DNA from: a virus
Reading direction: 5' to 3' (one strand)
IMG/VR virus record: IMGVR_UViG_3300032167_000022
Length of the DNA: 25,767 bases
Below the pieces are notes generated by a model. The model was not told where the DNA came from. It ran no database searches and worked only from the letters and a program-made list of their open reading frames with translations. Of the stretch, positions 12,779 through 25,767 are shown piece by piece (within the stretch, counting starts at the first letter, position 1; each line of letters begins with the position of its first letter). The position numbers and the translations under genes are program-made.

Positions 12779-12779
12779 C

Positions 12780-14017: not shown

Positions 14018-14023
14018 GGGGTT

Positions 14024-14251: not shown

Positions 14252-14252
14252 T

Positions 14253-14450
14253 TTATTTATTCCTCCATGCGTCTTTAGAATGTTCTTCAATGCGTCCATC
14301 TGCGCGATACCATTTAATGTAAGTGAAGTAAGTAGTTTCAAATACAATGCCATCAACCGCAGGAAGGGCAGACTTGATACAGAAATTTTTTCCTTTATGT
14401 ACTTTTACTCTTGCGGTAGCTTCTAAAAGGTCGCTCATCCACATATCCAT
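14253..14450 (-). CDS. hypothetical protein
   Basis: 65 aa ORF, first after the promoter at 14491; RBS AGAAAGAGAG. Confidence 0.55.
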   Translation of the reverse strand: MDMWMSDLLEATARVKVHKGKNFCIKSALPAVDGIVFETTYFTYIKWYRADGRIEEHSKDAWRNK

Positions 14451-14490
14451 TTTATTTGCTCTCTTTCTGTTGGTTCTTTACTGTATATAT

Positions 14491-14519
14491 ATTATATCAT
14501 ATTTTTATAAAAATGTCAA
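14491..14519 (-). promoter_or_regulatory. promoter cassette TTGACA-17-TGaTATAAT
   Basis: tgtcaa at 14514-14519 and attata at 14491-14496, then tca. Confidence 0.7.
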
Positions 14520-14620
14520 TAGATATTCTTGTTTATTTACAAAATGTTCATAATTGCGGGATTTGTGCGGTTTGTACAAAAATGTTAAAAAAATTTCTGA
14601 AAATTTGTATAGATTACCAC

Positions 14621-14657
14621 TTGACAAAATAACGCCCGTGGCCTCCGGTCGCGGGCG
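14621..14657 (-). terminator. rho-independent terminator
   Basis: Hairpin cgcccgtggcctccggtcgcgggcg; the reverse complement is followed by ttattttgtc. Confidence 0.6.
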
Positions 14658-14714
14658 TTTGAACAAATCAAGTATATTTTGTAAATAAATTATGAACACA
14701 GCATTTTCGTCATT

Positions 14715-14751
14715 ATGCACAAAAGAAAATCCCTCTACATCAGTAGAGGGA
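14715..14751 (-). terminator. rho-independent terminator overlapping the stop of the 14735 gene
   Basis: Hairpin atccctctac-atca-gtagagggat; the reverse complement is followed by tttcttttgtg. The TAG stop lies in the stem. Confidence 0.65.
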
Positions 14752-15133
14752 TTGTATAAGTTTTGCGGATGGTAATTTCTACCTGTGGTGGAATTTCATG
14801 GAGAACAAAGCGGTCGTTCCGCACATATTCACCAATTCCCATTTCCTGCCACTTTTGGCGGTTTCTGTCCTCAAAACGCAGAGTATTATATTTTGAAAGG
14901 GGCAGCTTCCATAAATAGGTAAATTTGCCATCTGGCGGCATTGTGTGTTCAGGGCTTTTCCTATAATTGCGCGTGTGCTCTGCCTGTCTGCGCTTTAGGT
15001 CGTTAGTTGTTCCAATCTTTAGAACAAAATTTTTGTCGGTATCGTGGTAAAAACCCACATAAAGAAACTCTTTTTCTGCCATTTTTGCATCTTTTTGACT
15101 AAAATTTAAGTGAAAAGTGGGAAAAATTCCCAC
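14735..15133 (-). CDS. GIY-YIG-like nuclease domain protein
   Basis: EFLYVGFYHD...FVLKIGTTNDLKRRQAEH matches the GIY-YIG core (KIG.T.....RR...H). It ends in TAG; if TAG is sense, a 14-codon extension runs to the next TAA. Confidence 0.7.
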   Translation of the reverse strand: MGIFPTFHLNFSQKDAKMAEKEFLYVGFYHDTDKNFVLKIGTTNDLKRRQAEHTRNYRKSPEHTMPPDGKFTYLWKLPLSKYNTLRFEDRNRQKWQEMGIGEYVRNDRFVLHEIPPQVEITIRKTYTIPLLM

Positions 15134-15139
15134 TTTTCT

Positions 15140-15553
15140 TTACTTTTTGGGCTTTCGCTTCTGAACAAGCGTCAATTCAAAGGCATCTTCACCAATTTTG
15201 AACGCAATTTGCCGTTCTTTGTTGGTAATTTCCACATCTTCGGTCGCAAACTGACTGTTTTTTGTCAAAAACTCCGCCAATTCTGCGATTATTCCGCCCT
15301 TTGTGGGATTTGCCTTGCGCTCACGCTGGGAGAAATTGTAAACAGTAGGCTTGCGGTCGCGGCAGTTAGCCATACGCATCGCTTCCTTCTCTGTCTCCTT
15401 GTCAAGGTCGTACGCCAGCCTGTCATTAGCGGAAGCCTTCTCAACTTCCTTGTCATAGGACAAAACCTCAAGAGCTTCTTCTTCGGTACAGCGCAAGCCC
15501 TCTTGAATTCGCTTGACTTGCGCTTTGTCGGCTCGGGTCAGTTCCATCTTCAT
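15140..15553 (-). CDS. hypothetical protein (module partner B; paralog of 19305..19661)
   Basis: RBS AAAGAGGTG. Its C-terminal half is similar to the 19305 gene product. Confidence 0.75.
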   Translation of the reverse strand: MKMELTRADKAQVKRIQEGLRCTEEEALEVLSYDKEVEKASANDRLAYDLDKETEKEAMRMANCRDRKPTVYNFSQRERKANPTKGGIIAELAEFLTKNSQFATEDVEITNKERQIAFKIGEDAFELTLVQKRKPKK

Positions 15554-15572
15554 CACCTCTTTTGGTTAGGCG

Positions 15573-15594
15573 TGGCAGAGGATTAAACCTCTGC
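15573..15594 (-). other. conserved inter-cistronic RNA hairpin enclosing the stop codon (ggcagagg-tttaa-tcctctgcc)
   Basis: Seen directly. The counterpart at 19679-19700 has a different stem and the same loop. Confidence 0.6.
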
Positions 15595-15981
15595 CAGCTT
15601 GAAGTAGGAAACGCGCTTTTCAATCACCTTTTCCATCTTGCCATCTTCTACCAGCTGACGGACAAGCGCAGTGATTCTCTGCTGGGACAGTCCAGCGCAT
15701 TCGGGAACATTCTTGATGAAGTCAGTAACGGTGTGCTGACCGCCATCATTTGCGAGGTAGTCAAGCATTGCCTGCTTCAGCGCATCGTTTGCTTCCTTCT
15801 TTTCCATCTGCTTGCCAGACGGCTTAGCGTTCTTACGAGCCAGTAGGTCAAGCTCATTTTCAATGAATTCAACGAGCGTGGGGTTAGATGCTACAGAGGG
15901 GATAGCGAGGAGGGCGTTGAAGTGGTCACGCTTGGTGAGCTTCTTTGCGGTAGCGTTGAGAGTAGAATTAGTGTTAGCCAT
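15583..15981 (-). CDS. winged-helix-like DNA-binding protein (paralog family A, member 2)
   Basis: 132 aa ORF; a close paralog of 19693..20082 (for example TVTDFIKNVPECAGLSQQRITALVRQLVEDGKMEKV). Leader ccatggtatcaatcctttcagc is shared. Confidence 0.8.
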   Translation of the reverse strand: MANTNSTLNATAKKLTKRDHFNALLAIPSVASNPTLVEFIENELDLLARKNAKPSGKQMEKKEANDALKQAMLDYLANDGGQHTVTDFIKNVPECAGLSQQRITALVRQLVEDGKMEKVIEKRVSYFKLAEV

Positions 15982-16061
15982 GGTATCAATCCTTTCAGCT
16001 GTTTAGGTTGCCAACCTTTTAATTTGTTTGCCGTGGTAGGTTTCCCTCACCCGGTATATAT

Positions 16062-16090
16062 ATTATACCATACTTTATGGTATTTGTCAA
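16062..16090 (-). promoter_or_regulatory. promoter cassette P1 of a tandem triple (TTGACA-17-TGgTATAAT)
   Basis: tgtcaa at 16085-16090 and attata at 16062-16067, then cca. UP-like ttgaaaaacttttcaaaaacc upstream. Confidence 0.75.
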
Positions 16091-16223
16091 GGGGTTTTTG
16101 AAAAGTTTTTCAAAAATTTTTTGCGATACTATCAAGATTTGAAGTCAATTTATCGCATTTTGGACTTCACTTGATGAGGAGATTTTTTACGAGGTTTTAC
16201 TCACCCTCGCCCCTGACATATAT

Positions 16224-16252
16224 ATTATACCATACTTTGAGCGATTTGTCAA
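16224..16252 (-). promoter_or_regulatory. promoter cassette P2 of the tandem triple
   Basis: tgtcaa at 16247-16252 and attata at 16224-16229. No ORF between it and P1. Confidence 0.75.
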
Positions 16253-16330
16253 GGGGTTTTTGAAAAGTTTTTCAAATTTTTTTGAGTGGCTTTCGGCGTC
16301 CCCGCGCATCCTTTTGTTTGGTACATATAT

Positions 16331-16359
16331 ATTATACCACACAATCACGTTTTTGTCAA
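16331..16359 (-). promoter_or_regulatory. promoter cassette P3 of the tandem triple
   Basis: tgtcaa at 16354-16359 and attata at 16331-16336, then cca. Confidence 0.7.
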
Positions 16360-16632
16360 GAGGTTTTTCAAAATTTCTCAAAAAATTTTTTCAATATCCA
16401 AGAACAAGTCAGATTGTCAATTTTTGGTAATGGTATAATATGTGAACGAGTCTATGTTCATTTGTTAATTTTTTATTACGGGAAAACGGCTAATTCACTT
16501 GATTGTTAATAAAATGTTTACAATTTTTTTATACGATATCTCTTGACAAAATTTCGCCCGTGACCTCCGGCCGCGGGCGACTCAAAAGTCAAGTGTTTTT
16601 TATAAATAATTTGTAAATAAATTATGAATGCC

Positions 16633-16668
16633 AAAAGTAAAAGAAAGAGAGGGGCTTGCGCCCTCTCC
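16633..16668 (-). terminator. rho-independent terminator
   Basis: Hairpin gagaggg-gcttgcg-ccctctc; the reverse complement is followed by tttcttttactttt. Confidence 0.6.
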
Positions 16669-16671
16669 TTA

Positions 16672-16905
16672 TTAAAATTCAAGAATCGGAATATCATCTT
16701 CCGCCGCATACACGCCGATAATTTCTTCACCATTATGAAGTTCACAGCGTGCCAGCAGTCTGTTTGTGATAATTTCTTTTGCTTCGGAATAATCTTCATC
16801 TTCTCCAAAAGTGGTAGGGTCTTTATGGATTTCATGAAGTCTTTCAAAAACTTCTTCATTTACATCCATTTCAATCGTGCGATAAAGTGTAACAGCAACT
16901 TTCAT
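16672..16905 (-). CDS. hypothetical acidic protein
   Basis: 77 aa ORF downstream of the promoter at 16948; TAA stop. Confidence 0.7.
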   Translation of the reverse strand: MKVAVTLYRTIEMDVNEEVFERLHEIHKDPTTFGEDEDYSEAKEIITNRLLARCELHNGEEIIGVYAAEDDIPILEF

Positions 16906-16947
16906 TTTATTTTACCTCTTTCTCCCCCCTTTATTGGGGGTACTATT

Positions 16948-16976
16948 ATTATATCACATTTCTTCGGATTTGTCAA
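16948..16976 (-). promoter_or_regulatory. promoter cassette TTGACA-17-TGaTATAAT with leader hairpin
   Basis: tgtcaa at 16971-16976 and attata at 16948-16953. Leader cccccaataaagggggga. Confidence 0.75.
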
Positions 16977-16982
16977 GGGGTT

Positions 16983-17240
16983 TTACAAAATTTCTACATT
17001 TTCCCACCAATCTATAAGTTTTACTTCTGTATAATAAGTATCCCACGATTCTTTTTTCTTTTTATCCCATTCTTCTTTTGCTTTAATAAATTTTTCCTGC
17101 ATATCTGTTTCGCTGGTGTAAGCACCCGTATAAAAAATTGTCTCTTTTGTCCAGTTGCCACGAGAGCCTTGTCCACCATCAACATAACAAGCGGGAACAT
17201 AAATTTTTGCCATTTTCATTTGCTTTACAATTCTTGTCAT
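16983..17240 (-). CDS. hypothetical protein
   Basis: 85 aa ORF; its stop overlaps the UP region of the next promoter. Confidence 0.7.
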   Translation of the reverse strand: MTRIVKQMKMAKIYVPACYVDGGQGSRGNWTKETIFYTGAYTSETDMQEKFIKAKEEWDKKKKESWDTYYTEVKLIDWWENVEIL

Positions 17241-17287
17241 TTTATTTTACCTCTCTCTTTTAGTGCCCCCTGTATTGGGGTACTATT

Positions 17288-17316
17288 ATTATACCACACT
17301 TTTGCTTATTTGTCAA
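17288..17316 (-). promoter_or_regulatory. promoter cassette TTGACA-17-TGgTATAAT with leader hairpin
   Basis: tgtcaa at 17311-17316 and attata at 17288-17293. Confidence 0.75.
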
Positions 17317-17333
17317 GGGATTTAGTAAAATTT

Positions 17334-17657
17334 TTATTCATTAAAAATATATTTCATTGTTTCATTTACCAAATCTTCATCATCATAAATAAATGCATAA
17401 CCATCTGCTGTACAAGCAAAAATAACTGCTTCATCTGCTTTACAATATGGTTTAACAATTTCATCCAGTAAATCACACAATTTATCAAAAGTTTTTCTAC
17501 GTGTCACAACATCTGTTTCTTTATAATGTTTATTTATATATATTGATTTATCAATAATCTGTTTGAAATCATTATTGTTTGTTTCAATTTTAATGATGCG
17601 ATGTCCAGTATCTTCTTCATCCATTTTACGTTTTGCTAAAATAATACCAAGTTTCAT
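17334..17657 (-). CDS. hypothetical protein
   Basis: 107 aa ORF. Confidence 0.7.
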   Translation of the reverse strand: MKLGIILAKRKMDEEDTGHRIIKIETNNNDFKQIIDKSIYINKHYKETDVVTRRKTFDKLCDLLDEIVKPYCKADEAVIFACTADGYAFIYDDEDLVNETMKYIFNE

Positions 17658-17699
17658 TTTGTTTTATTCCTTTCTATCCCCTGTATCGGGGATGTATAT

Positions 17700-17728
17700 A
17701 TTATACCACACTTTTTTGAATTTGTCAA
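17700..17728 (-). promoter_or_regulatory. promoter cassette TTGACA-17-TGgTATAAT with leader hairpin ccccgatacagggg
   Basis: tgtcaa at 17723-17728 and attata at 17700-17705. Confidence 0.75.
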
Positions 17729-17747
17729 TAGGTTTTGCGAAAGTTTT

Positions 17748-18221
17748 TTAAAGAATTTTTGTTTCGCTCACAAAATACTTTGCTTTGTTGGCTTCAAGCA
17801 GTCCTTTTACAATAAGGCTTTGCGCTTGCGTTTCTGCGTAAATGTTGAAAATGGTATATTTACCAATGTTGGGAATATAATTACAAGAAATTCCATTTTC
17901 TCTTAAGTCATTATAAAGGCTTTCGGTGTAAGGCTCACACACAGATGCTTCAATCTTCCAGAGTTTATCTTTACGCGCCTTTTCCTCTACAAACTTAATA
18001 ATCCATACGCAGATGAAATTTGCGATGGCAGTAATTGCCATATTCACCAAAATGCCTACGGTGCCTTGCGCGGTCAGCATGACAATCAGAGGATAGAAAC
18101 CATAACAAACCGCATTCATCACAGCGGACAGCCATTTACCGCTTTTAATGGTGGTAATGGCGCGGATAGTGGAAAGTGATACGTTAATTACAGTAGCGAT
18201 TGCAAAAATTAAAATATTCAT
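17748..18221 (-). CDS. membrane protein (about 3 TM helices) with C-terminal soluble domain
   Basis: Hydrophobic N-terminal 100 aa (MNILIFAIATVINVSL...ITAIANFICVWIIKF) followed by a polar domain. Confidence 0.75.
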   Translation of the reverse strand: MNILIFAIATVINVSLSTIRAITTIKSGKWLSAVMNAVCYGFYPLIVMLTAQGTVGILVNMAITAIANFICVWIIKFVEEKARKDKLWKIEASVCEPYTESLYNDLRENGISCNYIPNIGKYTIFNIYAETQAQSLIVKGLLEANKAKYFVSETKIL

Positions 18222-18227
18222 TTTTTT

Positions 18228-18464
18228 TTATCCCTCCGATTCAATTACAATGTGCGTTTTTACTGGAGTTATAGGGCTATCTTCATCACAAGCCCACAGT
18301 TGACCAGTTAAAAGCACTACAGCATTAATAGATTCATAATCAAAAGATTCAATATTTTTTATTTTCATATTTAAATCGCCATCACAGTCAATGAAGCATT
18401 CACCGACTTTAATGTCTTTAATTGTTACCTCTTTGTCCTTATTTCTCATGTCCTCAACTCTCAT
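18228..18464 (-). CDS. hypothetical protein
   Basis: 78 aa ORF. Confidence 0.7.
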   Translation of the reverse strand: MRVEDMRNKDKEVTIKDIKVGECFIDCDGDLNMKIKNIESFDYESINAVVLLTGQLWACDEDSPITPVKTHIVIESEG

Positions 18465-18506
18465 TTGTTTTACCTCTTTCTACCCTCTCTCTTGGAGGGT
18501 ATATAT

Positions 18507-18535
18507 ATTATACCACATCCAAGAGAGAAAGTCAA
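18507..18535 (-). promoter_or_regulatory. promoter cassette TTGACT-17-TGgTATAAT with leader hairpin
   Basis: agtcaa at 18530-18535 and attata at 18507-18512. Confidence 0.7.
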
Positions 18536-18554
18536 TGTATAATTTGTATTTATT

Positions 18555-18986
18555 TTATGAATTCTTTTTGAACGGGCACTGCGTTTCGCCTGCGTGGTCT
18601 TTCCACCAGTCTGCAAAATCTTCTGCAGTTAATACTTTCATCAAATCATTAATGGAAAGGTTATTAACTCTTTTACAGACCTTCTTGAAGCTAATAGGCT
18701 TCTTGAAATGCTTTTCATCATAATATTTGCCATAGCTATCCCAATCAGAACCCTGCACACGGATGTAAGGACTGCGCCGGAAAAAGGTATAATTTTCTTT
18801 GATACCGGGGAATCTGTCTACCTCTTCGCGCAGTTCCTCAAACGTGCGGCAGGTCGTGCGGAAAGTATCTTCAAAGGTTTTTGCTTCTTCGGGGGTGAGA
18901 TACTCATAATTGTAATCCCACACAAAAATTTCTTCCCATTCATCATCAAAGCGGACGTAATTCTTAACAGCGTAAATATTTTTCAT
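18555..18986 (-). CDS. hypothetical protein
   Basis: 143 aa ORF. Confidence 0.75.
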   Translation of the reverse strand: MKNIYAVKNYVRFDDEWEEIFVWDYNYEYLTPEEAKTFEDTFRTTCRTFEELREEVDRFPGIKENYTFFRRSPYIRVQGSDWDSYGKYYDEKHFKKPISFKKVCKRVNNLSINDLMKVLTAEDFADWWKDHAGETQCPFKKNS

Positions 18987-19031
18987 TGTTTTATCTCCTT
19001 TGCCTGTTGGCTCTTTGTTTTCTGTATATAT

Positions 19032-19060
19032 ATTATATCATATTATAATAAAAAAGTCAA
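19032..19060 (-). promoter_or_regulatory. promoter cassette TTGACT-17-TGaTATAAT
   Basis: agtcaa at 19055-19060 and attata at 19032-19037. Confidence 0.7.
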
Positions 19061-19162
19061 TAGGTTTTCTTTATTGTTTACAAAATGTTCATAATTGCGG
19101 GATTTGTATGAATTGACTAAAAACGCCCAAAAATTTTCTGAAAATTTGTATACATTACCTAT

Positions 19163-19200
19163 TGACAAAAAAAACGCGCGCCACCATCGGCGACGCGCGT
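19163..19200 (-). terminator. strong rho-independent terminator
   Basis: Hairpin acgcgcgccaccatcggcgacgcgcgt; the reverse complement is followed by ttttttttt. Confidence 0.75.
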
Positions 19201-19249
19201 TTGAACAAATCAAGTATATTTTGTAAACAATTTGTGAACTGGAAATTTT

Positions 19250-19295
19250 CGTCAAAATAAACAAAAATGCATATTACATTTGTAATATGCATTTT
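19250..19295 (-). terminator. rho-independent terminator (16-bp perfect inverted repeat)
   Basis: aaaatgcatattaca-tt-tgtaatatgcatttt; the reverse complement is followed by tgtttattttg. Confidence 0.7.
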
Positions 19296-19304
19296 GGAAA
19301 ATAT

Positions 19305-19661
19305 TTACTTTCGGGGAGCAGATAGAGTCAACTTGAATTTTCTACCATTGTAAAGAAACTCCATTTCACGTTCGGGATTGATAATGGTAAGATTTTCCAC
19401 TTTGTCAAAAATTGCCATTTCAATGCCTTTGATTAGTGCTTGCTTGTCGTTGTCGCTTTTGCGTTCCTTGGTGCTTGCTTTGCCGTATGCGTCAACGACT
19501 TTGCGCGGTGCTCGCCGCAATTCTTTACTTGCGTTCTTTTCTTCGGCGGTCTGCTCAAATAGTTTTTCGCCCTTGTCAATGCGCTTATCTGCGTCCATTA
19601 CGTCGGCGATTTCTTCATCTGTAAAGCCGAGCCGCCGCATTGCTTTTTCCTGTTCGCTCAT
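19305..19661 (-). CDS. hypothetical protein (module partner B; paralog of 15140..15553)
   Basis: 118 aa ORF with RBS GAGGGGGG. Confidence 0.75.
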   Translation of the reverse strand: MSEQEKAMRRLGFTDEEIADVMDADKRIDKGEKLFEQTAEEKNASKELRRAPRKVVDAYGKASTKERKSDNDKQALIKGIEMAIFDKVENLTIINPEREMEFLYNGRKFKLTLSAPRK

Positions 19662-19678
19662 GGATTACGTCCCCCCTC

Positions 19679-19700
19679 TTGGGGGAGGGGGATTAAACCC
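19679..19700 (-). other. conserved inter-cistronic RNA hairpin enclosing the stop codon (ggaggggg-tttaa-tccccctcc)
   Basis: Seen directly; a structural homolog of 15573-15594. Confidence 0.6.
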
Positions 19701-20082
19701 CCTCCGGAATGCGGAAGTAAGATACGCGCTTTACGATTACCTTTTCAAGCTTGCCATCTTCTACCATCTGGCGAACCAGTGCGGTAATCTTCTGCGGAGA
19801 AAGTCCAGCGCACGCAGGCACGTTCTTGATGAAGTCGGTAACAGTGTGCTGTTCGCCGCTCGCGGTTGCGAATTCAAGAATCGCCGCCTTAAGCCCCTGA
19901 TTTGCGATGTCCTTTTCAGTGAGCTTCTTGTTGTCGCTGTTGTTCTTGCGAGCCAGCAGGTCAAGTTCGTTGTTGATGAAATCAACGAGTGCGGGATTTG
20001 CGGCAACTTCGGGGAGCTGGAGCAGGGTGTTGAAGTGGTCGCGCTTAGTGAGCTTCTTGGAAGTAGAGTTAGTAGTAGCCAT
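19693..20082 (-). CDS. winged-helix-like DNA-binding protein (paralog family A, member 3)
   Basis: 129 aa ORF, highly similar to 15583..15981. Confidence 0.8.
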   Translation of the reverse strand: MATTNSTSKKLTKRDHFNTLLQLPEVAANPALVDFINNELDLLARKNNSDNKKLTEKDIANQGLKAAILEFATASGEQHTVTDFIKNVPACAGLSPQKITALVRQMVEDGKLEKVIVKRVSYFRIPEGV

Positions 20083-20166
20083 GGTATCAATCCTTTCAGC
20101 GTAGGTCGCTACCCATTATTTTTATTTTACCGATTGGAGGTCGTGCCCTCTTGCTTCGGTATATAT

Positions 20167-20195
20167 ATTATATCATACTTTGAGCGATTTGTCAA
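20167..20195 (-). promoter_or_regulatory. promoter cassette TTGACA-17-TGaTATAAT
   Basis: tgtcaa at 20190-20195 and attata at 20167-20172. Confidence 0.75.
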
Positions 20196-20226
20196 GGGGT
20201 TTTGCAAAAGTTTTTGAAAAATTTTT

Positions 20227-20333
20227 TGGAGGCAGTGGTAGGAGTTGAACCTACGTTTTCCAATGGCGAACGTTTCCATTTGTTGTATCTCAAGCCATCT
20301 TTATGGAAATAGAGCCGCTTCTATCTCACTGCC
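20227..20333 (-). tRNA. tRNA-like element, atypical length (104 nt plus encoded CCA)
   Basis: The minus strand reads GGCAGTG...atag-aagcggct-ctat...gtagg-TTCAACT-cctac-CACTGCC-t-CCA. It has a 7-bp acceptor stem, a D-arm with GG, and a canonical T-arm and loop. The anticodon region carries about 16 extra nt (a 23-nt loop between tccat and atgga), and no clean anticodon was identified. Confidence 0.4.
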
Positions 20334-20373
20334 ATATTATCGGGGAGGATTTGTTCCTCTCTTCTGTATATAT

Positions 20374-20402
20374 ATTATATCATACTTTTGCGGTTTTGTC
20401 AA
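20374..20402 (-). promoter_or_regulatory. promoter cassette TTGACA-17-TGaTATAAT driving the tRNA-like element
   Basis: tgtcaa at 20397-20402 and attata at 20374-20379. The tRNA-like 5' end lies about 35 nt downstream of the predicted transcription start. Confidence 0.75.
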
Positions 20403-20451
20403 GGGGTTTTGCGAAATTTCTTAAAGTTTTTTTTGCGGTAGTCATGGGGGA

Positions 20452-21156
20452 TTAATTCCCCCATAACTCTTTCTGCATTGCCTTGTGTTGTCTGAAACAG
20501 TACGCCATTATCTGCGCTTCAATTTCCACATCTTCAAGCCCTGTATGATTTTCAACAAAATCATTATTGCGGGAAATGAATCTGTAAAGATTTTCCGCTG
20601 TCATGGAAAGTCTGCCAGTTTTTGTCAGATAACCATGTTCTTCACAAAATGCGCGGTAGGTGGGCATCTTTCCGATTACACTTTGCGCCATCTTCATACT
20701 GTCCCAAATTGTAATTCCATAAGGGAGAAAATAGCGGTACTTGCTTTTTGTAGTCCAGCGCTCTGTGCTGTTTAGGCTGTTGTAGTCAAAACGGGCGTTA
20801 TGCGCGCAAATTGTATCAACTGCGAAATCTGCGATATCATTCAGCAGAGCCGAGCGCATTTGATAGGTATTAGCCACAATGCGCCTACCCGCTTCAATGT
20901 CTGCGAGATACTGCGGGATTTTATTTGCGTAGTATGCCGACTTCATCAGTTCAGCTTCATGGAAGAAAATATCAGAATTTACAAAACTCTTTTTGCGGTA
21001 GATGTTTCCATGCTTATCAGTTACCGCCCACCCAAGGTCATACACAAGTGTACTACTTGTGTCAAGCTGTCCTCTTTCATCGCGGAAGGTGTTTGCGGTT
21101 TCCGTGTCAAGCACGATAATGTAATGTCTGCGGCGGTCAATCTTTTCTGTGTTCAT
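20452..21156 (-). CDS. DEDDh-family 3'-5' exonuclease (DnaQ/epsilon-like)
   Basis: Exo I YIIVLDTETAN, Exo II CAHNARFDYNSL, Exo III HTGLEDVEIEAQIM. 234 aa. The TAA stop sits in the loop of hairpin atggggg-attaatt-cccccat. Confidence 0.8.
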   Translation of the reverse strand: MNTEKIDRRRHYIIVLDTETANTFRDERGQLDTSSTLVYDLGWAVTDKHGNIYRKKSFVNSDIFFHEAELMKSAYYANKIPQYLADIEAGRRIVANTYQMRSALLNDIADFAVDTICAHNARFDYNSLNSTERWTTKSKYRYFLPYGITIWDSMKMAQSVIGKMPTYRAFCEEHGYLTKTGRLSMTAENLYRFISRNNDFVENHTGLEDVEIEAQIMAYCFRQHKAMQKELWGN

Positions 21157-21198
21157 TGGTCTATCTCTCTTTCTACCCCCTGTATCGGGGGTATATAT

Positions 21199-21227
21199 AT
21201 TATATCATACTTTGAGCGATTTGTCAA
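21199..21227 (-). promoter_or_regulatory. promoter cassette TTGACA-17-TGaTATAAT with leader hairpin cccccgatacaggggg
   Basis: tgtcaa at 21222-21227 and attata at 21199-21204. Confidence 0.75.
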
Positions 21228-21256
21228 GGGGTTTTGCGAAAGTTTTTTAAAGATTT

Positions 21257-21460
21257 TTAGCGGGGGAAAAAGCAAGCACTTCTGTCATTCCATACTACTA
21301 TGTATTTGTCGCCATTGACTTCTTCTACTCTGTGAAGGGTGGCTTCGTAGAAACCGCATTCCATGAGCGCGTTATACTCATCACGGGCATCATTGAAATT
21401 ATTGAATTGGGTTACTACGCCCTCAATTTCTACCTCAAAATAAATTTTAGTGTTAGTCAT
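21257..21460 (-). CDS. hypothetical protein
   Basis: The true start is the ATG at 21460 (RBS AGAGAGG; MTNTKIYFEVEIEG...). The track's longer version translates the promoter. Confidence 0.65.
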   Translation of the reverse strand: MTNTKIYFEVEIEGVVTQFNNFNDARDEYNALMECGFYEATLHRVEEVNGDKYIVVWNDRSACFFPR

Positions 21461-21494
21461 TTGTGATGTACCTCTCTTTCTTTTCTGTATATAT

Positions 21495-21523
21495 ATTATA
21501 CCACATATCAAGCCAAAAGTCAA
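21495..21523 (-). promoter_or_regulatory. promoter cassette TTGACT-17-TGgTATAAT
   Basis: agtcaa at 21518-21523 and attata at 21495-21500. Confidence 0.7.
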
Positions 21524-21632
21524 TAGGTTTTTGAAAAAAATCTTTCGTCAAATTGCACAAACATTTTGGGAAAATTTCCCTTCACAATTTGTTTACAAAA
21601 TGCTTACAAAAAAGTATTGAAATTCACAATTT

Positions 21633-21670
21633 GTTCAAAAACCGGCCGCTTGGAGCGCGGGCGGCCGGCC
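21633..21670 (-). terminator. rho-independent terminator
   Basis: Hairpin ccggccgc-ttggagcgcgg-gcggccgg; the reverse complement is followed by tttttg. Confidence 0.6.
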
Positions 21671-21767
21671 CAAAAGTCAAGTCAAAATTTGTAAATAAAA
21701 TGAAAACAAAATATGAATTGAAATGAAAAAATGAATCCAAAAAATGGAAACAAAAATTGAAATTGAA

Positions 21768-21796
21768 ATAAAAAACCGCCCAAAGGCGGCTTTTAT
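21768..21796. terminator. bidirectional rho-independent terminator
   Basis: aaaaaaccgcccaaaggcggctttta. Confidence 0.75.
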
Positions 21797-22069
21797 TTAA
21801 TAGGTGATACGAATATTATTCAATCTATCTGTATATGATTCTGGACCATCTTCTTCAAACAGTCTTGTTCCGTTAGCAACTCTTCCACGTTGAACGCAGA
21901 AGAAAATACCATCTTTTCTTGCCCGAGAAATTAAATCATTAAATTCTTCCATATAATTATCGCGTGTAATTTCTTTTTTTCTTCTTTCAATGATAAGTTT
22001 AAGCTCTTCGGCGGTGACTTCCATCAGAACAACATTCTCTTCAACTTCATTAAATCTACCAGTAGGCAT
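21797..22069 (-). CDS. hypothetical protein
   Basis: 90 aa ORF. Confidence 0.7.
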   Translation of the reverse strand: MPTGRFNEVEENVVLMEVTAEELKLIIERRKKEITRDNYMEEFNDLISRARKDGIFFCVQRGRVANGTRLFEEDGPESYTDRLNNIRITY

Positions 22070-22124
22070 TTTGTTTTCTCTCTTTCTTCCGTTCTTTTGG
22101 GCTTCCGGATTTCCTCTGTATATA

Positions 22125-22153
22125 TATTATATCATACTTTGCGGTGTTTGTCA
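22125..22153 (-). promoter_or_regulatory. promoter cassette TTGACA-17-TGaTATAAT
   Basis: tgtcaa at 22148-22153 and attata at 22125-22130. Leader cttccgttcttttgggcttccggatttcc is shared with the promoter at 24362. Confidence 0.75.
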
Positions 22154-22186
22154 AGAGGTTTTGCGAAATTTTTTGAAAAAAATTTT

Positions 22187-22378
22187 TTATGCCAAGAATT
22201 CACCAGTTTGAATATAATGCCAGATAGCTTCTATGCAAGTATGCTCAAAATCATCTATGCGTTTTTCATCATGGCATTTATCATTTAATGGACATTCTTC
22301 ACATTTAAAAATTGGGATATCAATAGATTTTGGGTCAATAATTGCTTGAAAACGTTTAAACTGAATATTTTCTTCCAT
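22187..22378 (-). CDS. small CxxC protein
   Basis: 63 aa with RBS AGGAAAG; contains CEECPLNDKCHDEKRIDDFEHTC. Confidence 0.55.
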   Translation of the reverse strand: MEENIQFKRFQAIIDPKSIDIPIFKCEECPLNDKCHDEKRIDDFEHTCIEAIWHYIQTGEFLA

Positions 22379-22395
22379 GCTATTTCTTTCCTGTA

Positions 22396-22893
22396 TTAAA
22401 ACTTTTTTGAATTTACCTGTATGCGCTCAATCCAAGAGCGCATACAGTAATTCAAGAATATCAATCGCGGTCGGGTCAAACGCTTCGCCCATGTGCCAGC
22501 CCTTGCGAACCTTTTCATTGTCATCAAAGAGCAAGCGGTTTCGTCCTCTTCAAGGTATCTGCGGATGCTGTCAGCCTTAGTCGCGCCATACTTTACACCG
22601 TGGAAGTGAGTGTAAGGAATGCCGAGGGCTTCAAGCCATTCTCGCTTCGCTTCGCGTACCGCTTCATCATACTCGGGAGTGCTTTCCTTTGACAGCCAAG
22701 TGATAATGCGAATTTCAACGCCGTTATCAATCAGCGTATTCAGGATGCAAGCAAGCTCCTCTTCATCCCACATACATTCTGCTTCCCGATACGGGGCAGG
22801 GTCAAACGCACGAAGCTGTTCAAGCCAGTTGGGCACGTTGTAAAGGTCTGCGAGGGTGCCGTCCATGTCAAAGCAAATCATCTTAGGTAACAT
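22396..22893 (-). pseudogene. HAD-superfamily 5'(3')-deoxyribonucleotidase-like gene with apparent -1 frameshift near 22540-22560
   Basis: The start is MLPKMICFDMDGTLADLYNVPNWLEQL (HAD motif I, DxDGT). After ...RRYLEED, the homologous continuation RNRLLFDDNEKVRKGWHMGEAFDP (motif IV, DD) is in another frame, which is closed by a TGA just upstream. The track's M at 22971 translates the promoter. Confidence 0.55.
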
Positions 22894-22942
22894 AGTTTTT
22901 ACTTCCTTTCTCTTGGAACCTCTTGGGTTCCTCTGTATATAT

Positions 22943-22971
22943 ATTATATCACATTTCCGGTCGTTTGTCAA
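22943..22971 (-). promoter_or_regulatory. promoter cassette TTGACA-17-TGaTATAAT
   Basis: tgtcaa at 22966-22971 and attata at 22943-22948. Confidence 0.75.
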
Positions 22972-23015
22972 GAGGTTTTGCGAAATTTTTTAAATTTTTT
23001 TTCGCAAGGTAGAGG

Positions 23016-23192
23016 TCACTTGACCTCTACCACATCCACGATTTCCCATTCTTTGGCAGGATAATCGGTCTCGTTATCAAGGCGATACATACATTCTTTC
23101 TTCGCTTCACCTTTATTACTCGCTTTAACGAAGTATTCATCCCATCCAAATTTCTTGTGATAAACAGAGCAAGCATAAGTTTTCATCTCCAT
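23016..23192 (-). CDS. small hypothetical protein (58 aa)
   Basis: RBS AAAGAAAGGA. Reads MEMKTYACSVYHKKFGWDEYFVKASNKGEAKKECMYRLDNETDYPAKEWEIVDVVEVK; TGA stop inside the palindrome ggtagaggtca-ct-tgacctctacc. Confidence 0.45.
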   Translation of the reverse strand: MEMKTYACSVYHKKFGWDEYFVKASNKGEAKKECMYRLDNETDYPAKEWEIVDVVEVK

Positions 23193-23238
23193 GTGTCCTT
23201 TCTTTGGTCGCCTATTGGCTTTCCTTTACTGTATATAT

Positions 23239-23267
23239 ATTATATCATATTTTAATAAAAATGTCAA
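23239..23267 (-). promoter_or_regulatory. promoter cassette TTGACA-17-TGaTATAAT
   Basis: tgtcaa at 23262-23267 and attata at 23239-23244. Confidence 0.7.
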
Positions 23268-23384
23268 TGAATATTCTGTAAATAGATTGTGAAGTTTCTG
23301 TGAACTGGCCTATTGGTAGTTTCAGGAAATGGGAAACATATGCGAATTATCCAGTTTTTGCCATAAAAAATGCGGAATTAGGTG

Positions 23385-23435
23385 GCCATTAGAAATACCG
23401 CTCGTTTCGGGTGGTAAACGCCCGGAAACGAGCGG
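23385..23435 (-). terminator. rho-independent terminator (11-bp stem)
   Basis: ccgctcgtttc...gaaacgagcgg; the reverse complement is followed by tatttctaat. Confidence 0.55.
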
Positions 23436-23454
23436 GCGCCCACAATTGTAAATT

Positions 23455-23545
23455 TTTTAAAAAAATTTTATGAACAAATTGTGAACAAAATATGAACAAA
23501 AATGTATGAACAAATTGTGAACAGAATATGAACAAATTGTTACCA
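23455..23545. repeat. six tandem copies of (T)ATGAACAAA(T)
   Basis: tatgaacaaattgtgaacaaaatatgaacaaaaatgtatgaacaaattgtgaacagaatatgaacaaattg. Confidence 0.65.
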
Positions 23546-23591
23546 AAGCGGCTGGATATTTTTTCCACCCAGCCGCTTTATTTTACATCTG

Positions 23592-23957
23592 TCACATAGG
23601 GATTCTATCAACCGCATCCGCCTGCGCGATTGCTTTTTCAATCAGTGTATCAAGCGCTTTTTCAATTCTCGCAAGCTCTGCTTTGTTCTTGACTATATAA
23701 TGGTCATTCCCTTTACGTTCAACATCAAAGTTGTTTTCAAGAATCAAATGCGCGTTAGCCTCAATTACTCTGCGATATGCGATATTATCGTCGCACTCCC
23801 AATTTTTCATGATTAGGTCTTTGTCTCTGTAAAATACCTCTCTTGCTCTTCGGATAACGTTATTTGTTTCGCCGATTTTAATGACGTAGGTGCCGCGCTT
23901 TTTTTCTTGTAAAGCAAGCACCGTTTTTTCGTTCATCGCATAGTAAACACAGCTCAT
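23592..23957 (-). CDS. GIY-YIG-like nuclease domain protein
   Basis: VYYAM...GTYVIKIGETNNVIRRAREV fits the GIY/YIG plus Arg pattern. 121 aa, TGA stop. Confidence 0.65.
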   Translation of the reverse strand: MSCVYYAMNEKTVLALQEKKRGTYVIKIGETNNVIRRAREVFYRDKDLIMKNWECDDNIAYRRVIEANAHLILENNFDVERKGNDHYIVKNKAELARIEKALDTLIEKAIAQADAVDRIPM

Positions 23958-24003
23958 TTTATTTTACCTCTTTCTTTATTTTTTGTTGGAGTCAATCCCC
24001 GCT

Positions 24004-24123
24004 TTACGCGGGGATTTTTCTGACCAGCTTGCCGTGCTTCATTTCTTCCACCTTAAGCTCGCGCTTGCTGAATCCCTTCACTGCTGTTCTGTAGCCGTCT
24101 GCGAAAATAAACCACCAAAACAT
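24004..24123 (-). CDS. small hydrophobic/basic protein (39 aa)
   Basis: SD AAGGGGGAT. Reads MFWWFIFADGYRTAVKGFSKRELKVEEMKHGKLVRKIPA; its TAA sits in the loop of hairpin atccccgc-tttac-gcggggat. Confidence 0.4.
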   Translation of the reverse strand: MFWWFIFADGYRTAVKGFSKRELKVEEMKHGKLVRKIPA

Positions 24124-24143
24124 CTTTTTTATCCCCCTTTTAT

Positions 24144-24303
24144 TATTCGTGTTCAGCTCTGTCAACGTACTTAACAACTTCAACGGGTACGTCACACATA
24201 ATTGCGATTTCTTCAATGCCGTACAAGTAAACATCGCCGACGCATTCATCAAGCAGGTTTGCAATTTCTACATACTTTTCAAAAGTGATGCTTTCAATAG
24301 TCA
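24144..24303 (-). CDS. small hypothetical protein (53 aa)
   Basis: The ATG at 24303 follows leader ...agagagattaaaaaa. Reads MTIESITFEKYVEIANLLDECVGDVYLYGIEEIAIMCDVPVEVVKYVDRAEHE. Confidence 0.55.
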
Positions 24304-24361
24304 TTTTTTTAATCTCTCTTTCTTCCGTTCTTTGTGGCTTCCGGATTTCCTTTACTGTATC

Positions 24362-24390
24362 TATTATACCACACAATTGCGATTCTGTCA
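24362..24390 (-). promoter_or_regulatory. promoter cassette TTGACA-17-TGgTATAAT
   Basis: tgtcaa at 24385-24390 and attata at 24362-24367. Confidence 0.7.
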
Positions 24391-24508
24391 AGGGGGTTTT
24401 TGAAATTTCTTTAAAAAAAATGTATTTTGTACGTTTTGCACAAAAATGTATAAATATTCATTTTTGTATAATTTGACTAAAAATGTATATTATACATTTT
24501 TGTGCAAT

Positions 24509-24538
24509 TTGACGAACGAACATTTGTTCGCGTATAGT
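24509..24538 (+). promoter_or_regulatory. plus-strand promoter TTGACG-18-TATAGT with a perfect Firmicutes LexA (Cheo) box CGAACATTTGTTCG in the spacer
   Basis: ttgacg at 24509-24514, cgaacatttgttcg at 24517-24530, tatagt at 24533-24538. Confidence 0.5.
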
Positions 24539-24696
24539 TTTGCGATTTTCTGCTTTTACCATTTTCTTCCAGCACTTACAAATTTTCCCATTTACCAGAA
24601 AATGGTAAAAAGACCGTTAAATTCTTAACAAGCGCATCCAGTTTCTTCCATTACCAAATGGTGGATGAATTTCCAAAATTTACCGGGTAGGGAAAA

Positions 24697-24960
24697 CGCG
24701 AAAACTGTTTTTTCCAAAAACTGGAATTTCGTGAAAATTTTAACAATCGCGCGGCCGCCCCTTATTTTAACACTTTATCACTTTACCATACTAAAGCGCG
24801 ACTTCGGGGCCCCGCGACACTTGTCGTACAAAACGGAAGGCTGGCATTGTGAAATTTTTCACAAACACGAAAATCGTCAAAAAACTGTTTTTCACTTTCA
24901 CGCTTTACCATACTAAAGTGTGTGAAATTTTTAACAATCGGCGGGCCGCAGGGGAGAGGG
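24697..24960. repeat. two diverged direct repeats (aaaactgtttttc..., ctttaccatactaaag, gtgaaatttttaacaatcg-GC hairpin)
   Basis: Shared blocks at 24697-24770 and 24870-24960, seen directly. Confidence 0.5.
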
Positions 24961-25270
24961 TTTGTTAACAAAAAATTTACAATTTAAAAATTTACAATTT
25001 GTTTACATTCGGGAGAATTTGTTCACAATTTATTTACAATTTATTTAAAAAAAAATATTGAAATTCACAGTTTGTTCACAAATTCGGGCCCTGGGGCCCG
25101 AGAACAGAGATAATTGTGAACAAATTGTAAATTTTTTGTTAACAATTCATAAATTGTTAACAAAAAATTTACAATTTGTTCACAATTTGTTCACATTCGG
25201 GAAATAAAAAGTTTACAATTTGTTCACAATTTGTTTACAAAAAATTCACAAATTGTTCACAATTTGTGAA
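24960..25270. repeat. dense array (more than 20 copies) of an 11-12-bp repeat ACAATTTGTTCACA / TTGTGAACAA with three TCACAttCGGG punctuations
   Basis: Examples: tttacaatttgtttacattcggg, aatttgttcacaatttatttacaattt, aattgtgaacaaattgtaaat, tttacaatttgttcacaatttgttcacattcggg, ttcacaaattgttcacaatttgtgaac. Confidence 0.7.
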
Positions 25271-25399
25271 CTCCGGCCGCTTGGAACGCGAGCGGCCGGC
25301 TCAAAATCAAGCATATTTTGTAAATAATTTGTAAATTAAAAATGAATTTTTTGTAAACAATTTATGAATTTTTTATTCATAGAAATTTTACAATTTGTT

Positions 25400-25442
25400 C
25401 ATAAATTAAAAATGGTAAATGCTGGAATTACCAGCATTTACC
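25400..25442 (-). terminator. rho-independent terminator with the stop codon in the loop (12-bp stem)
   Basis: ggtaaatgctgg-aatta-ccagcatttacc; the reverse complement is followed by atttttaatttat. Confidence 0.7.
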
Positions 25443-25634
25443 AATCTTTGCGATTAATTTTTTTTGGTAATCTCTACCATGCGCAAACACCCACTTGCTT
25501 TTGATTTTGTGATTTGTTTCATTATAAATATTAGTGCTTCTGATTGCGCTCTCAAGCCATCTGACATTGTTTGCCATAAGCACTTCACCAGTAGTAAGAT
25601 TGTAAGCGGCATGCGGTCTGTTGTTAGTAGTCAT
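25428..25634 (-). CDS. hypothetical protein
   Basis: The true start is the ATG at 25634 (RBS GGAAGT; MTTNNRPHAAYNLTTGEVL...). The track's longer form translates the promoter. Confidence 0.6.
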   Translation of the reverse strand: MTTNNRPHAAYNLTTGEVLMANNVRWLESAIRSTNIYNETNHKIKSKWVFAHGRDYQKKLIAKIGKCW

Positions 25635-25680
25635 TTTATTTACTTCCTTTCTGTGAGGGTTTCTCCCTCTCTCTGTATAT

Positions 25681-25709
25681 ATTATACCACACTTTTGGTT
25701 TTTTGTCAA
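25681..25709 (-). promoter_or_regulatory. promoter cassette TTGACA-17-TGgTATAAT
   Basis: tgtcaa at 25704-25709 and attata at 25681-25686. Confidence 0.7.
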
Positions 25710-25726
25710 TAGGTTTTTGAAAAGTT

Positions 25727-25764
<38 letters not shown>

Positions 25765-25767
25765 TGT

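What the first reader, a model, noticed from the sequence alone, without database searches (positions are those of the whole stretch)
24509..24560. SOS-box promoter on the plus strand pointing into the repeat array
A perfect Firmicutes LexA/DinR Cheo box (CGAACATTTGTTCG) lies exactly in the 18-nt spacer of a plus-strand TTGACG...TATAGT promoter. That is the canonical LexA-repressed geometry, and it is the only convincing plus-strand promoter outside the rep module. It would transcribe into the 24.6-25.3 kb repeat region, antisense to the direction of all neighbouring genes. Possible roles are an SOS-inducible non-coding or antisense RNA, a DNA-damage-responsive switch, or transcriptional activation of an origin-like repeat array. 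It also points to a low-GC Gram-positive host.
Basis: partly seen in the sequence, partly recalled or inferred. Interest (0 to 1): 0.6.

Follow-up and report, generated by a model that had tools for sequence, protein, structure and literature searches.

The report
LexA-type SOS box in phage spacer DNA
A textbook binding site for the bacterial DNA-damage repressor LexA sits inside a promoter-like sequence in a gene-free stretch of a large gut phage. It lies in an optional DNA cassette, drives no recognisable gene, and its promoter part is broken in the nearest relatives, so it is a modest curiosity rather than a new system.

Summary
CGAACATTTGTTCG (24517-24530) lies in the 18-nt spacer of TTGACG (24509-14) / TATAGT (24533-38) on the plus strand. 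Chance is very unlikely: about 0.006 such boxes are expected per window, and about 0.0035 of boxes would be framed by a promoter this good. The same register is used by real promoters in Clostridia genomes and in prophages.

The window is the early-gene region of an uncultured large Bacillota siphovirus of the phAss-1 / Enterococcus EF1-H1 group. About 25 perfect sigma-A promoters all point the other way.

- The box lies in a 1.95-kb optional cassette (23308-25254, carrying a T5orf172 gene) that the 88-93% relative lacks.
- Of the two nearest cassette variants, both have lost the key A of the -10. One has also lost a core box base and the G of the -35.
- A distant variant keeps TTGACG and the box, but at a 20-nt spacer.
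- 708 kb of related early regions show no enrichment of LexA boxes.
- There is no ORF, no Rfam family and no convincing terminator downstream.

Best reading: a real LexA operator, like the SOS boxes of phage SPbeta. It gives at most an accessory, strain-specific, SOS-inducible non-coding or antisense transcript. A decaying relic is nearly as likely.

The parts
24517..24530 (.). LexA/DinR-type operator (Cheo box), CGAACATTTGTTCG
   Evidence: It is a 13/14 match to the B. subtilis consensus CGAACATATGTTCG (PMC8270828). The core is kept in L116 and L112 and mutated in L115.
24509..24514 (+). -35-like hexamer TTGACG, which is also the end of a 22-nt direct repeat
   Evidence: family D8. It is kept in L116 and L112 and reads TTAACG in L115.
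24533..24538 (+). -10-like hexamer TATAGT, 18 nt after the -35, with no TG extension
   Evidence: It reads TGTAGT in L115 and TGTAAT in L116. In L112 it is TATGGT at a 20-nt spacer.
24459..24516 (+). Two copies of CATTTTTGTRYAATTTGACNAA, 36 nt apart
   Evidence: D8. TAGTCAAATTATACAA is conserved in L112, L115 and L116.
24415..24505 (.). AT-rich palindromes between the two divergent promoters (for example AAAAATGTATA-T-TATACATTTTT and GCACAAAAATGTATA / TATACATTTTTGTGC)
   Evidence: (I7, D9).
24363..24391 (-). Perfect early promoter TTGACA-17-TGgTATAAT for the operon of the 53-aa gene, the 39-aa gene and T5orf172
24143..24304 (-). 53-aa early gene, with no family match
23592..23957 (-). T5orf172-domain gene (121 aa), the cargo of the cassette
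   Evidence: PF10544, 21 bits against a cut-off of 20.
23308..25254 (.). Optional 1.95-kb cassette that is absent from relative L015. Both junctions lie in or near arrays of the 11-bp repeat.
24545..24960 (.). Gene-free region downstream of the plus-strand promoter. It contains duplicated ~122-nt units with GC-rich palindromes, CTTTACCATACTAAAG palindromes (24781-96, 24903-18) and Rex-operator-like boxes (24847-64 perfect; 24729-46 and 24920-37 degenerate).
   Evidence: L116 lacks one unit.
24960..25400 (.). Array of about 25 units of TTYACAAWTTG with an 11-bp period, in both orientations, interrupted by GC-rich hairpins
25413..25443 (-). Intrinsic terminator of the upstream 68-aa early gene (25428-25634)

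Best explanation
The element is a genuine binding site for the host's LexA repressor, of the Bacillota Cheo/DinR type. In this phage strain it sits in the spacer of a moderate sigma-A promoter. The promoter faces away from the early genes, in a gene-free, repeat-rich intergenic region of a large Bacillota gut siphovirus.

Inferred mechanism: in an undamaged host, LexA occupies the spacer and blocks RNA polymerase. When LexA is cleaved, because the host is already in SOS or because infection damages host DNA, the promoter fires. It then makes a non-coding plus-strand RNA that runs into the structured region and the 11-bp array. If that RNA passes the hairpin at 25413-25443, it becomes antisense to the 68-aa early gene.

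The element travels with an optional T5orf172 cassette. It is accessory, not part of the conserved phage programme. The box is better kept than the promoter.

Shown directly: sequence, geometry, non-randomness, cassette status and the variant states. Inferred only: LexA binding, inducibility, the existence of the transcript and any effect.
For: - The box and promoter are present, with a joint chance expectation of about 2e-5.
- The identical register is used by independent promoters with genes downstream. These are six IMG/VR loci next to tRNA ends and four Clostridia/Acutalibacteraceae MAGs. The MAGs carry the very same 14-mer upstream of a conserved protein of about 120 aa with a sigma-70 region 4-like segment.
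- The box matches the consensus better than any SPbeta SOS box, and LexA binds several of those in vitro at nanomolar Kd (PMC8270828).
- The host type fits: sigma-A extended -10 promoters, with Enterococcus phages and the phAss-1 group as relatives.
- The core box next to TTGACG recurs, in the same orientation relative to the early genes, in a cassette whose T5orf172 is only 57% identical. There too it faces a repeat array (L112). The chance of a core box in that 580-nt spacer is about 0.006 (my estimate from base composition).
- A second box with the same ATTT spacer exists elsewhere in the same lineage. It is perfect in L015 and has one mismatch in L009.
Against: - There is no ORF with a usable ribosome-binding site downstream and no Rfam family. 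There is also no clear plus-strand terminator.
- The plus strand folds less well than the minus strand (z -2.0 against -3.0).
- The whole segment is dispensable, because it is absent from L015.
- In L115 and L116 the -10 lacks its A. L115 also has GTTC changed to GTTT and TTGACG changed to TTAACG. Substitutions accumulate at the background rate.
- L112 has a 20-nt spacer.
- LexA boxes are not enriched in 708 kb of related early regions.
- The second box of the lineage is not in a promoter.
- The -35 is part of a direct repeat.
- Enterococcus relatives have only a core-mismatched look-alike.
Confidence: 0.4

Rival explanations
1. Relic. A once-functional LexA-repressed promoter arrived with the T5orf172 cassette, or was captured from a host or prophage. 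It has lost its gene and now drifts neutrally. LexA may still bind, but nothing depends on it.
For: - The geometry is too good for chance, yet there is no downstream gene.
- The substitution rate in the promoter equals the background rate. The changes hit the -10 A, the -35 G and the box core in the nearest variants.
- The segment is dispensable.
- The family shows no enrichment of LexA boxes.
Against: - The core box plus TTGACG survives in L112, although the rest of that spacer is barely alignable.
- The element is identical in the roughly 100%-identical copies of this phage fetched from six metagenome assemblies; one search read 23 contigs that carry its T5orf172 protein.
- No donor sequence was found in the phage collection. 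The single genome scan used only a 30-nt promoter pattern and returned no copy of the window sequence.
Confidence: 0.3
2. The box is a LexA site that acts without the plus-strand promoter. One possibility is that it is one of several host-factor sites, alongside the Rex-like boxes, that tune the adjacent early operon (53-aa gene, 39-aa gene, T5orf172) or shape the DNA. Another is that it blocks read-through transcription on the minus strand.
For: - The box is conserved better than the -10.
- It always lies 125-200 bp upstream of the early promoter of the T5orf172 operon.
- The second box of the lineage has no promoter around it.
- Perfect Rex-type operators lie in the same spacer and in Enterococcus phage spacers.
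Against: - A single site about 125 bp upstream of a perfect extended -10 promoter is a poor repressor position.
- No second box was found near P24391.
- A strong terminator at 25413-25443 should already stop read-through.
Confidence: 0.12
3. It is not a LexA site. The palindrome would be one member of the phage's own family of operator-like palindromes and repeats, bound by a phage protein. These include CTTTA-N6-TAAAG, TTGTGAA-N4-TTCACAA, TGTATA-N-TATACA and the TTCACAATTTG array. The LexA match would then be coincidental.
For: - The spacer is crowded with other palindromes and repeats.
- ATTTGTTC is shared between the box and the junctions of the 11-bp array.
- The Enterococcus phage look-alike has GTGC, not GTTC, and is conserved in that form.
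- A TAG-containing winged-helix ORF in the window gives a weak, sub-threshold hit to the LexA DNA-binding domain.
Against: - All ten specified positions match the LexA consensus, where 0.006 matches are expected.
- Clostridia genomes use the identical 14-mer and register in gene promoters.
- No phage protein with this specificity was identified.
Confidence: 0.1
4. Pure chance: an AT-rich spacer that happens to contain the motif and promoter-like hexamers.
For: - 10/12 promoter matches are common in this AT-rich DNA, with 21 found against 8.5 expected in 23000-25767.
Against: - The joint expectation is about 2e-5 per window.
- The box recurs in L112 and at a second locus of the same lineage.
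Confidence: 0.04

Closest known systems
SOS boxes of Bacillus subtilis phage SPbeta (yolC/yolD, yopS/yopT, yorB and others)
   Same: SPbeta is also a large Bacillota siphovirus carrying Cheo-type LexA boxes in promoter regions, several of them between divergently transcribed genes. LexA binds some of them in vitro (Kd 3.9-12 nM), and their role in the phage is still unknown (PMC8270828). The longer contig of this phage also encodes a protein with a YonG_N domain.
   Different: The SPbeta boxes precede genes and the phage is temperate. Here there is no gene downstream, no lysogeny gene was seen in the window, and the box is closer to consensus than any SPbeta box.
Chromosomal LexA-repressed promoters of Bacillota with the box in the -35/-10 spacer
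   Same: The register is identical, TTGAC-N3-CGAAC-N4-GTTCG-N2-TAnnnT. In Acutalibacteraceae and other Clostridia MAGs even the 14-mer CGAACATTTGTTCG is the same. The register also occurs in IMG/VR prophage loci.
   Different: Those promoters have near-consensus -10 hexamers (TATGAT, TATAAT) and a protein-coding gene 20-85 nt downstream. This one has TATAGT, an 18-nt spacer and no gene.
LexA-controlled switches of temperate phages, such as the GIL01 P1 dinBox with gp7 (PMC6182141, listed). Coliphage 186 tum, Gifsy antirepressors and CTXphi rstA are cited from my own knowledge.
   Same: The host LexA is used directly as the sensor at a phage promoter.
   Different: In those phages the regulated product is a defined regulator or the early replication genes, and LexA decides between lysogeny and lysis. 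Here no product is encoded and no lysogeny module is evident.
Spo0A boxes in the early promoter and origin regions of phages phi29 and Nf (PMC2731898)
   Same: A phage classified as lytic (though phi29 can suppress its lytic cycle and become trapped in the host spore) carries operators for a host global regulator in its early control regions, coupling infection to the state of the host.
   Different: The regulator is different. The phi29 sites overlap essential early promoters and are conserved, whereas here the promoter is accessory and not conserved.

Membership tests
Bacillota LexA (DinR) operator / Cheo box | Palindrome CGAAC-N4-GTTCG with invariant GAAC/GTTC cores | tested here: met
   24517-24530 is CGAACATTTGTTCG. 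About 0.006 such boxes are expected per window. The consensus is taken from PMC8270828.
Bacillota LexA (DinR) operator / Cheo box | The operator overlaps the core promoter, so that bound LexA excludes RNA polymerase | tested here: met
   The box fills the 18-nt spacer of TTGACG/TATAGT. The same register occurs in independent promoters that have genes downstream. This holds for this strain only.
Bacillota LexA (DinR) operator / Cheo box | Conservation of the operator at the orthologous position in relatives | tested here: inconclusive
   The box is perfect in L116 and its core is perfect in L112. L115 has a core mismatch. The segment is absent from L015. The family shows no enrichment.
Bacillota LexA (DinR) operator / Cheo box | Binding by LexA and de-repression after DNA damage | not testable with these tools
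   This needs EMSA or ChIP, and RNA-seq with and without mitomycin C.
Sigma-A (sigma-70-type) promoter | TTGACA/TATAAT-like hexamers 16-18 nt apart | tested here: met
   The match is 10/12 with an 18-nt spacer and no TG. It is much weaker than the phage's own 12/12 TGn promoters.
Sigma-A (sigma-70-type) promoter | The -10 hexamer (A at position 2, T at position 6) is maintained in relatives | tested here: not met
   The hexamer is TGTAGT in L115 and TGTAAT in L116. In L112 it is TATGGT at a 20-nt spacer.
Sigma-A (sigma-70-type) promoter | A transcribed gene or a defined RNA lies downstream | tested here: not met
   No ORF has a usable ribosome-binding site, and the TAG-readthrough frame is also unconvincing. 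There is no Rfam family.
LexA-controlled phage lysis/lysogeny switch (GIL01, 186 tum, antirepressor type) | The LexA box controls a phage regulator or early replication gene | tested here: not met
   Nothing is encoded downstream on the plus strand. The neighbouring genes are on the other strand behind their own perfect promoter.
LexA-controlled phage lysis/lysogeny switch (GIL01, 186 tum, antirepressor type) | Temperate life style (integrase, repressor) | tested here: inconclusive
   None turned up among the ten window proteins scanned. Only about 31 kb of a genome of at least 91 kb was seen.
Replication origin activated by transcription (lambda ori, T4 ori type) | A unique iteron cluster next to an AT-rich unwinding element and an initiator gene | tested here: not met
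   The array is present. However, smaller arrays of the same unit lie in at least four other spacers, and no initiator gene is adjacent. A separate module with a rep-like ORF and iterons lies at 9.7-10.8 kb.

The most novel reading that the evidence does not exclude
Large gut Bacillota siphoviruses of the phAss-1/EF1 group may use their long, repeat-rich, gene-free early spacers as sensor boards made of operators for host global regulators. These would include LexA for DNA damage and Rex-type TTGTGAA-N4-TTCACAA for NADH/NAD+. The operators could gate non-coding or antisense transcription, or titrate the regulators as the genome copy number rises. Either way, the infection programme would be coupled to the host's physiological state, as phi29 does with Spo0A.
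Probability: 0.12. Interest if true: 0.6.

Novelty: new member of a known kind. Interest (0 to 1): 0.3.

Why it matters
If the box is functional, it would show that a large and apparently virulent gut phage reads the host's SOS state directly through LexA at a promoter that encodes no protein. That adds a case to the short list of phages using host global regulators as sensors. It also supports a Bacillota host for an uncultured phage lineage that is common in gut metagenomes (6,549 homologues of one of its proteins). As the evidence stands, the element is strain-specific and probably accessory, so its main value is as a host clue and as a pointer to the unusual operator-rich spacers of this phage group.

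Tried and rejected
- **Known RNA.** Rfam gave nothing at gathering thresholds over the whole window. At permissive E-values over 24300-25500 it gave only long-hairpin miRNA artefacts. No tRNA or tmRNA was found.
- **Hidden plus-strand gene.** No ORF of 20 aa or more has a usable ribosome-binding site. The frame that stays open when TAG is read through (24481-24852) has no convincing start and is not protein-like. The 83-aa ORF at 24665-24916 has no Pfam match.
- **Structured plus-strand RNA.** The plus strand gives z -2.0 with a poorly defined centroid, and the minus strand folds better (z -3.0). No covariation test was possible, because the variants are at least 85% identical or not alignable.
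- **Conservation through the exonuclease neighbourhood.** I fetched 80 metagenome loci and several long contigs. None carries a homologue of the promoter.
- **DNA similarity to known phages.** There was none.
- **IMG/VR scan for the conserved box+CGTCAA motif.** No hits.
- **Enterococcus phage H1 look-alike (GGGAACGAACCGAACATATGTGCG).** This looked promising at first. EF1 and the VRE9 phages all keep GTGC rather than GTTC, and the flanking GAAC repeats vary. I therefore do not count it as a LexA box.
- **Origin of replication at the array.** Rejected as the leading idea, because the same unit is scattered over other spacers and a separate rep-plus-iteron module exists.
- **Short contigs of T5orf172 homologues (L109-L111, L113, L114).** They do not reach the spacer.

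Full report
**What is in the sequence.**
The plus strand reads TTGACG (24509-14), AA, CGAACATTTGTTCG (24517-30), CG, TATAGT (24533-38). The promoter scan lists it as a 10/12 match with an 18-nt spacer and no TG extension. It is the only GAAC-N4-GTTC in the window. It is also the only CGAAC-N4-GTTCG even when one mismatch is allowed.

A first-order Markov model of the window predicts 0.2 core boxes and 0.006 full boxes. Only 0.35% of simulated boxes are framed by a promoter this good.

The published B. subtilis consensus is CGAACATATGTTCG (PMC8270828), so the box is a 13/14 match. That is better than any of the SOS boxes listed there for phage SPbeta, several of which bind LexA at nanomolar Kd.

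**What the window is.**
Nearly all genes lie on the minus strand. About 25 of them are preceded by a perfect TTGACA-17-TGnTATAAT promoter with conserved flanks, and most genes are small and have no known family.

An exonuclease-like protein (20452-21156) and a peptidase-like protein (3-866) are about 40% identical to proteins of the ~140-kb Enterococcus phages H1, EF1, EF5 and VRE9. They are more distantly related to phAss-1. That group consists of large siphoviruses of Bacillota (PMC10607447).

Contigs carrying identical proteins reach 91 kb and encode a protein with a YonG_N domain. Phage H1 has the same layout: many consensus promoters in front of small early genes, and gene-free spacers of about 1 kb. 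The window is therefore the early region of an uncultured large Bacillota phage. The inference of a low-GC Gram-positive host is sound.

**Is the geometry that of real LexA promoters?**
Yes. The pattern TTGAC-N3-CGAAC-N4-GTTCG-N2-TATANT occurs in six IMG/VR prophage loci. Five of them are followed by a long ORF after a leader of about 80 nt.

With the window's own ATTT spacer, the pattern occurs in six bacterial genomes. Four are Clostridia or Acutalibacteraceae MAGs. In these it precedes a conserved protein of about 120 aa with a sigma-70 region 4-like segment. For patterns with 21-22 specified bases, these counts are well above chance (my estimate: below 0.1 expected).

**What lies downstream.**
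Nothing recognisable.
- No ORF of 20 aa or more after the presumed start near 24545 has a usable ribosome-binding site.
- Reading TAG as sense opens a frame, but it has no convincing start.
- Rfam finds nothing beyond hairpin artefacts.
- The plus strand of 24545-24965 folds only modestly better than shuffles (z -2.0). The minus strand does better (z -3.0).

The region holds duplicated ~122-nt units with GC-rich palindromes and CTTTACCATACTAAAG palindromes. It also holds one perfect and two degenerate Rex-type operators. Beyond these lies an array of about 25 units of TTYACAAWTTG with an 11-bp period. Smaller clusters of the same unit lie in at least four other spacers.

**Conservation.**
The first related contigs obtained were about 100% identical and so uninformative.

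- **L015.** This relative is 88% identical in the exonuclease and about 90% at the DNA level. It lacks window 23308-25254 entirely. Both junctions lie in or near 11-bp arrays. The box therefore sits in an optional 1.95-kb cassette whose cargo is a T5orf172-domain gene.
- **L115 and L116.** These carry the same spacer at 85-90% identity. L116 reads TTGACG..CGAACATTTGTTCG..TGTAAT. L115 reads TTAACG..CGAACATTTGTTTG..TGTAGT. Both have lost the A at position 2 of the -10. L115 has also lost a core base of the box and the G of the -35. The density of substitutions in the 30-nt promoter (2-3 changes) equals that of the surrounding 230 nt (6-10%).
- **L112.** Its T5orf172 is only 57% identical and its spacer is barely alignable. 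It has TTGACG-C-TGAACATGTGTTCG-GGGGG-TATGGT on the strand opposite to the early genes, again facing a (different) repeat array. The core box and its adjacency to TTGACG are kept, but the spacer is 20 nt.
- **The wider family.** In 708 kb from 87 loci (56-88% identity in the exonuclease), GAAC-N4-GTTC occurs 13 times. Palindromes of the same composition occur 4-23 times. None of the 13 occurrences is in a promoter spacer.
- **A second box.** It has the same ATTT spacer and lies about 3 kb beyond the window end in the same lineage. It is perfect in L015 and has one mismatch in L009. It is not inside a promoter.
- **The Enterococcus phage look-alike.** It has GTGC in all four phages examined, and I do not count it.

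**Interpretation.**
The element is too good to be accidental, and it looks exactly like LexA-repressed promoters of gut Clostridia. I expect LexA of a Bacillota host to bind it.

However, the promoter part is not maintained in the nearest relatives and the segment is dispensable. No product is encoded. My best reading (0.40) is a real LexA operator that, in this strain, gates a weak SOS-inducible non-coding or antisense transcript as an accessory feature of a T5orf172 cassette.

A decaying relic of a once gene-linked LexA promoter is nearly as likely (0.30). Less likely readings are:
- a LexA site acting without the promoter (0.12);
- a site for a phage protein (0.10);
- chance (0.04).

The idea that transcription activates an origin is weakened in two ways. 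The repeat unit is scattered over other spacers, and a separate module with a rep-like ORF and iterons lies at 9.7-10.8 kb.

**Comparison with what is known.**
The closest analogue is the set of SOS boxes in SPbeta. SPbeta is also a large Bacillota siphovirus, LexA binding there is shown in vitro, and the role of the boxes is still unknown. GIL01 and other temperate phages use LexA to control defined regulators (PMC6182141). phi29 and Nf use Spo0A boxes in their early regions (PMC2731898).

This case belongs to the known kind 'LexA operators in phage genomes'. Its unusual points are the gene-free, antisense context and the apparently virulent-type genome. I score interest at 0.30.

Noticed in passing
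window 24847-24864 (perfect); 24729-24746 and 24920-24937 (2 mismatches); L014 420, 761, 1120, 9794, 10155; L081 6200; L086 3807: There are perfect matches to the Rex redox-repressor operator TTGTGAA-W4-TTCACAA (PMC2883068). They lie in the gene-free early spacers of this phage, of Enterococcus phages H1/EF1/VRE9 (five copies, conserved) and of two other metagenomic relatives. In 708 kb of relatives, same-composition control palindromes are almost always absent. The 11-bp array unit TTCACAA equals the Rex half-site.
   Followed up: partly
window 9750-10790: A segment with 23% GC and strongly positive GC skew carries a plus-strand ORF of about 240 codons (9963-10685) interrupted by 10 in-frame TAG codons and no other stops. 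It has two winged-helix-like segments, with only weak Pfam hits (HTH_11 at 24 bits). It is flanked by iterons AGGGTAATTTTTCATAGTTAGTAA. It looks like a rep-plus-iteron module that uses TAG recoding, as reported for phAss-1 relatives, and may be a foreign or parasitic element.
   Followed up: partly
window 12590-25709, minus strand: About 25 perfect 12/12 promoters (TTGACA-17-TGnTATAAT) share longer conserved flanks (AAAACCCCTTGACAAATCG...TATGATATAATATATATAC). Each stands in front of one or a few small genes. Enterococcus phage H1 has the same organisation. It resembles the host-takeover modules of phages such as SPO1 and T5 (comparison from my own knowledge).
   Followed up: partly
window 23308-25254: The 1.95-kb segment carrying the T5orf172 gene is missing from the ~90% identical relative L015. 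Both junctions lie in or near 11-bp repeat arrays, which suggests that the arrays mediate gain or loss of early-gene cassettes.
   Followed up: partly
window 24781-24796, 24903-24918; L009 5030, 5206, 6446; L015 398, 578, 1821; L063 228-370: A conserved palindrome, CTTTAGTATGGTAAAG (CTTTA-N6-TAAAG), is repeated five times or more per genome in the gene-free spacers of this lineage. Its partner protein is unknown.
   Followed up: partly
L009 6479-6492; L015 1854-1867 (outside the window): A second LexA-type box with the same ATTT spacer lies next to one of the CTTTAGTATGGTAAAG units. It reads CAAACATTTGTTCG in this phage and is a perfect CGAACATTTGTTCG in the 88% relative.
   Followed up: partly
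window 24960-25400, with 25087-25102 and 25273-25300: An array of about 25 units of TTYACAAWTTG with an 11-bp period lies here, in both orientations. It includes a perfect 36-nt inverted repeat (25112-25147 / 25152-25187) and is punctuated by GC-rich hairpins (CGGGCCCTGGGGCCCG; CCGGCCGCTTGGAACGCGAGCGGCCGG). Its function is unknown. The 11-bp periodicity would place sites on one face of the helix, as in the parC centromeres of plasmids (comparison from my own knowledge).
   Followed up: partly
window 25726-25757: A run of about 32 T followed by A5 lies at the window end. Several independent assemblies of the same phage break within about 150 nt of this point (L008, L011-L013). It is likely an assembly breakpoint, or close to a repeat or terminus boundary.
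   Followed up: no
window 1-9700 versus 12000-25767: The left part has about 31% GC and promoters of a different flavour (TTGATTTTTATAAAAAAATATGATATAAT). The right part has 37-46% GC. The two halves may have different evolutionary origins or belong to different expression classes.
   Followed up: no
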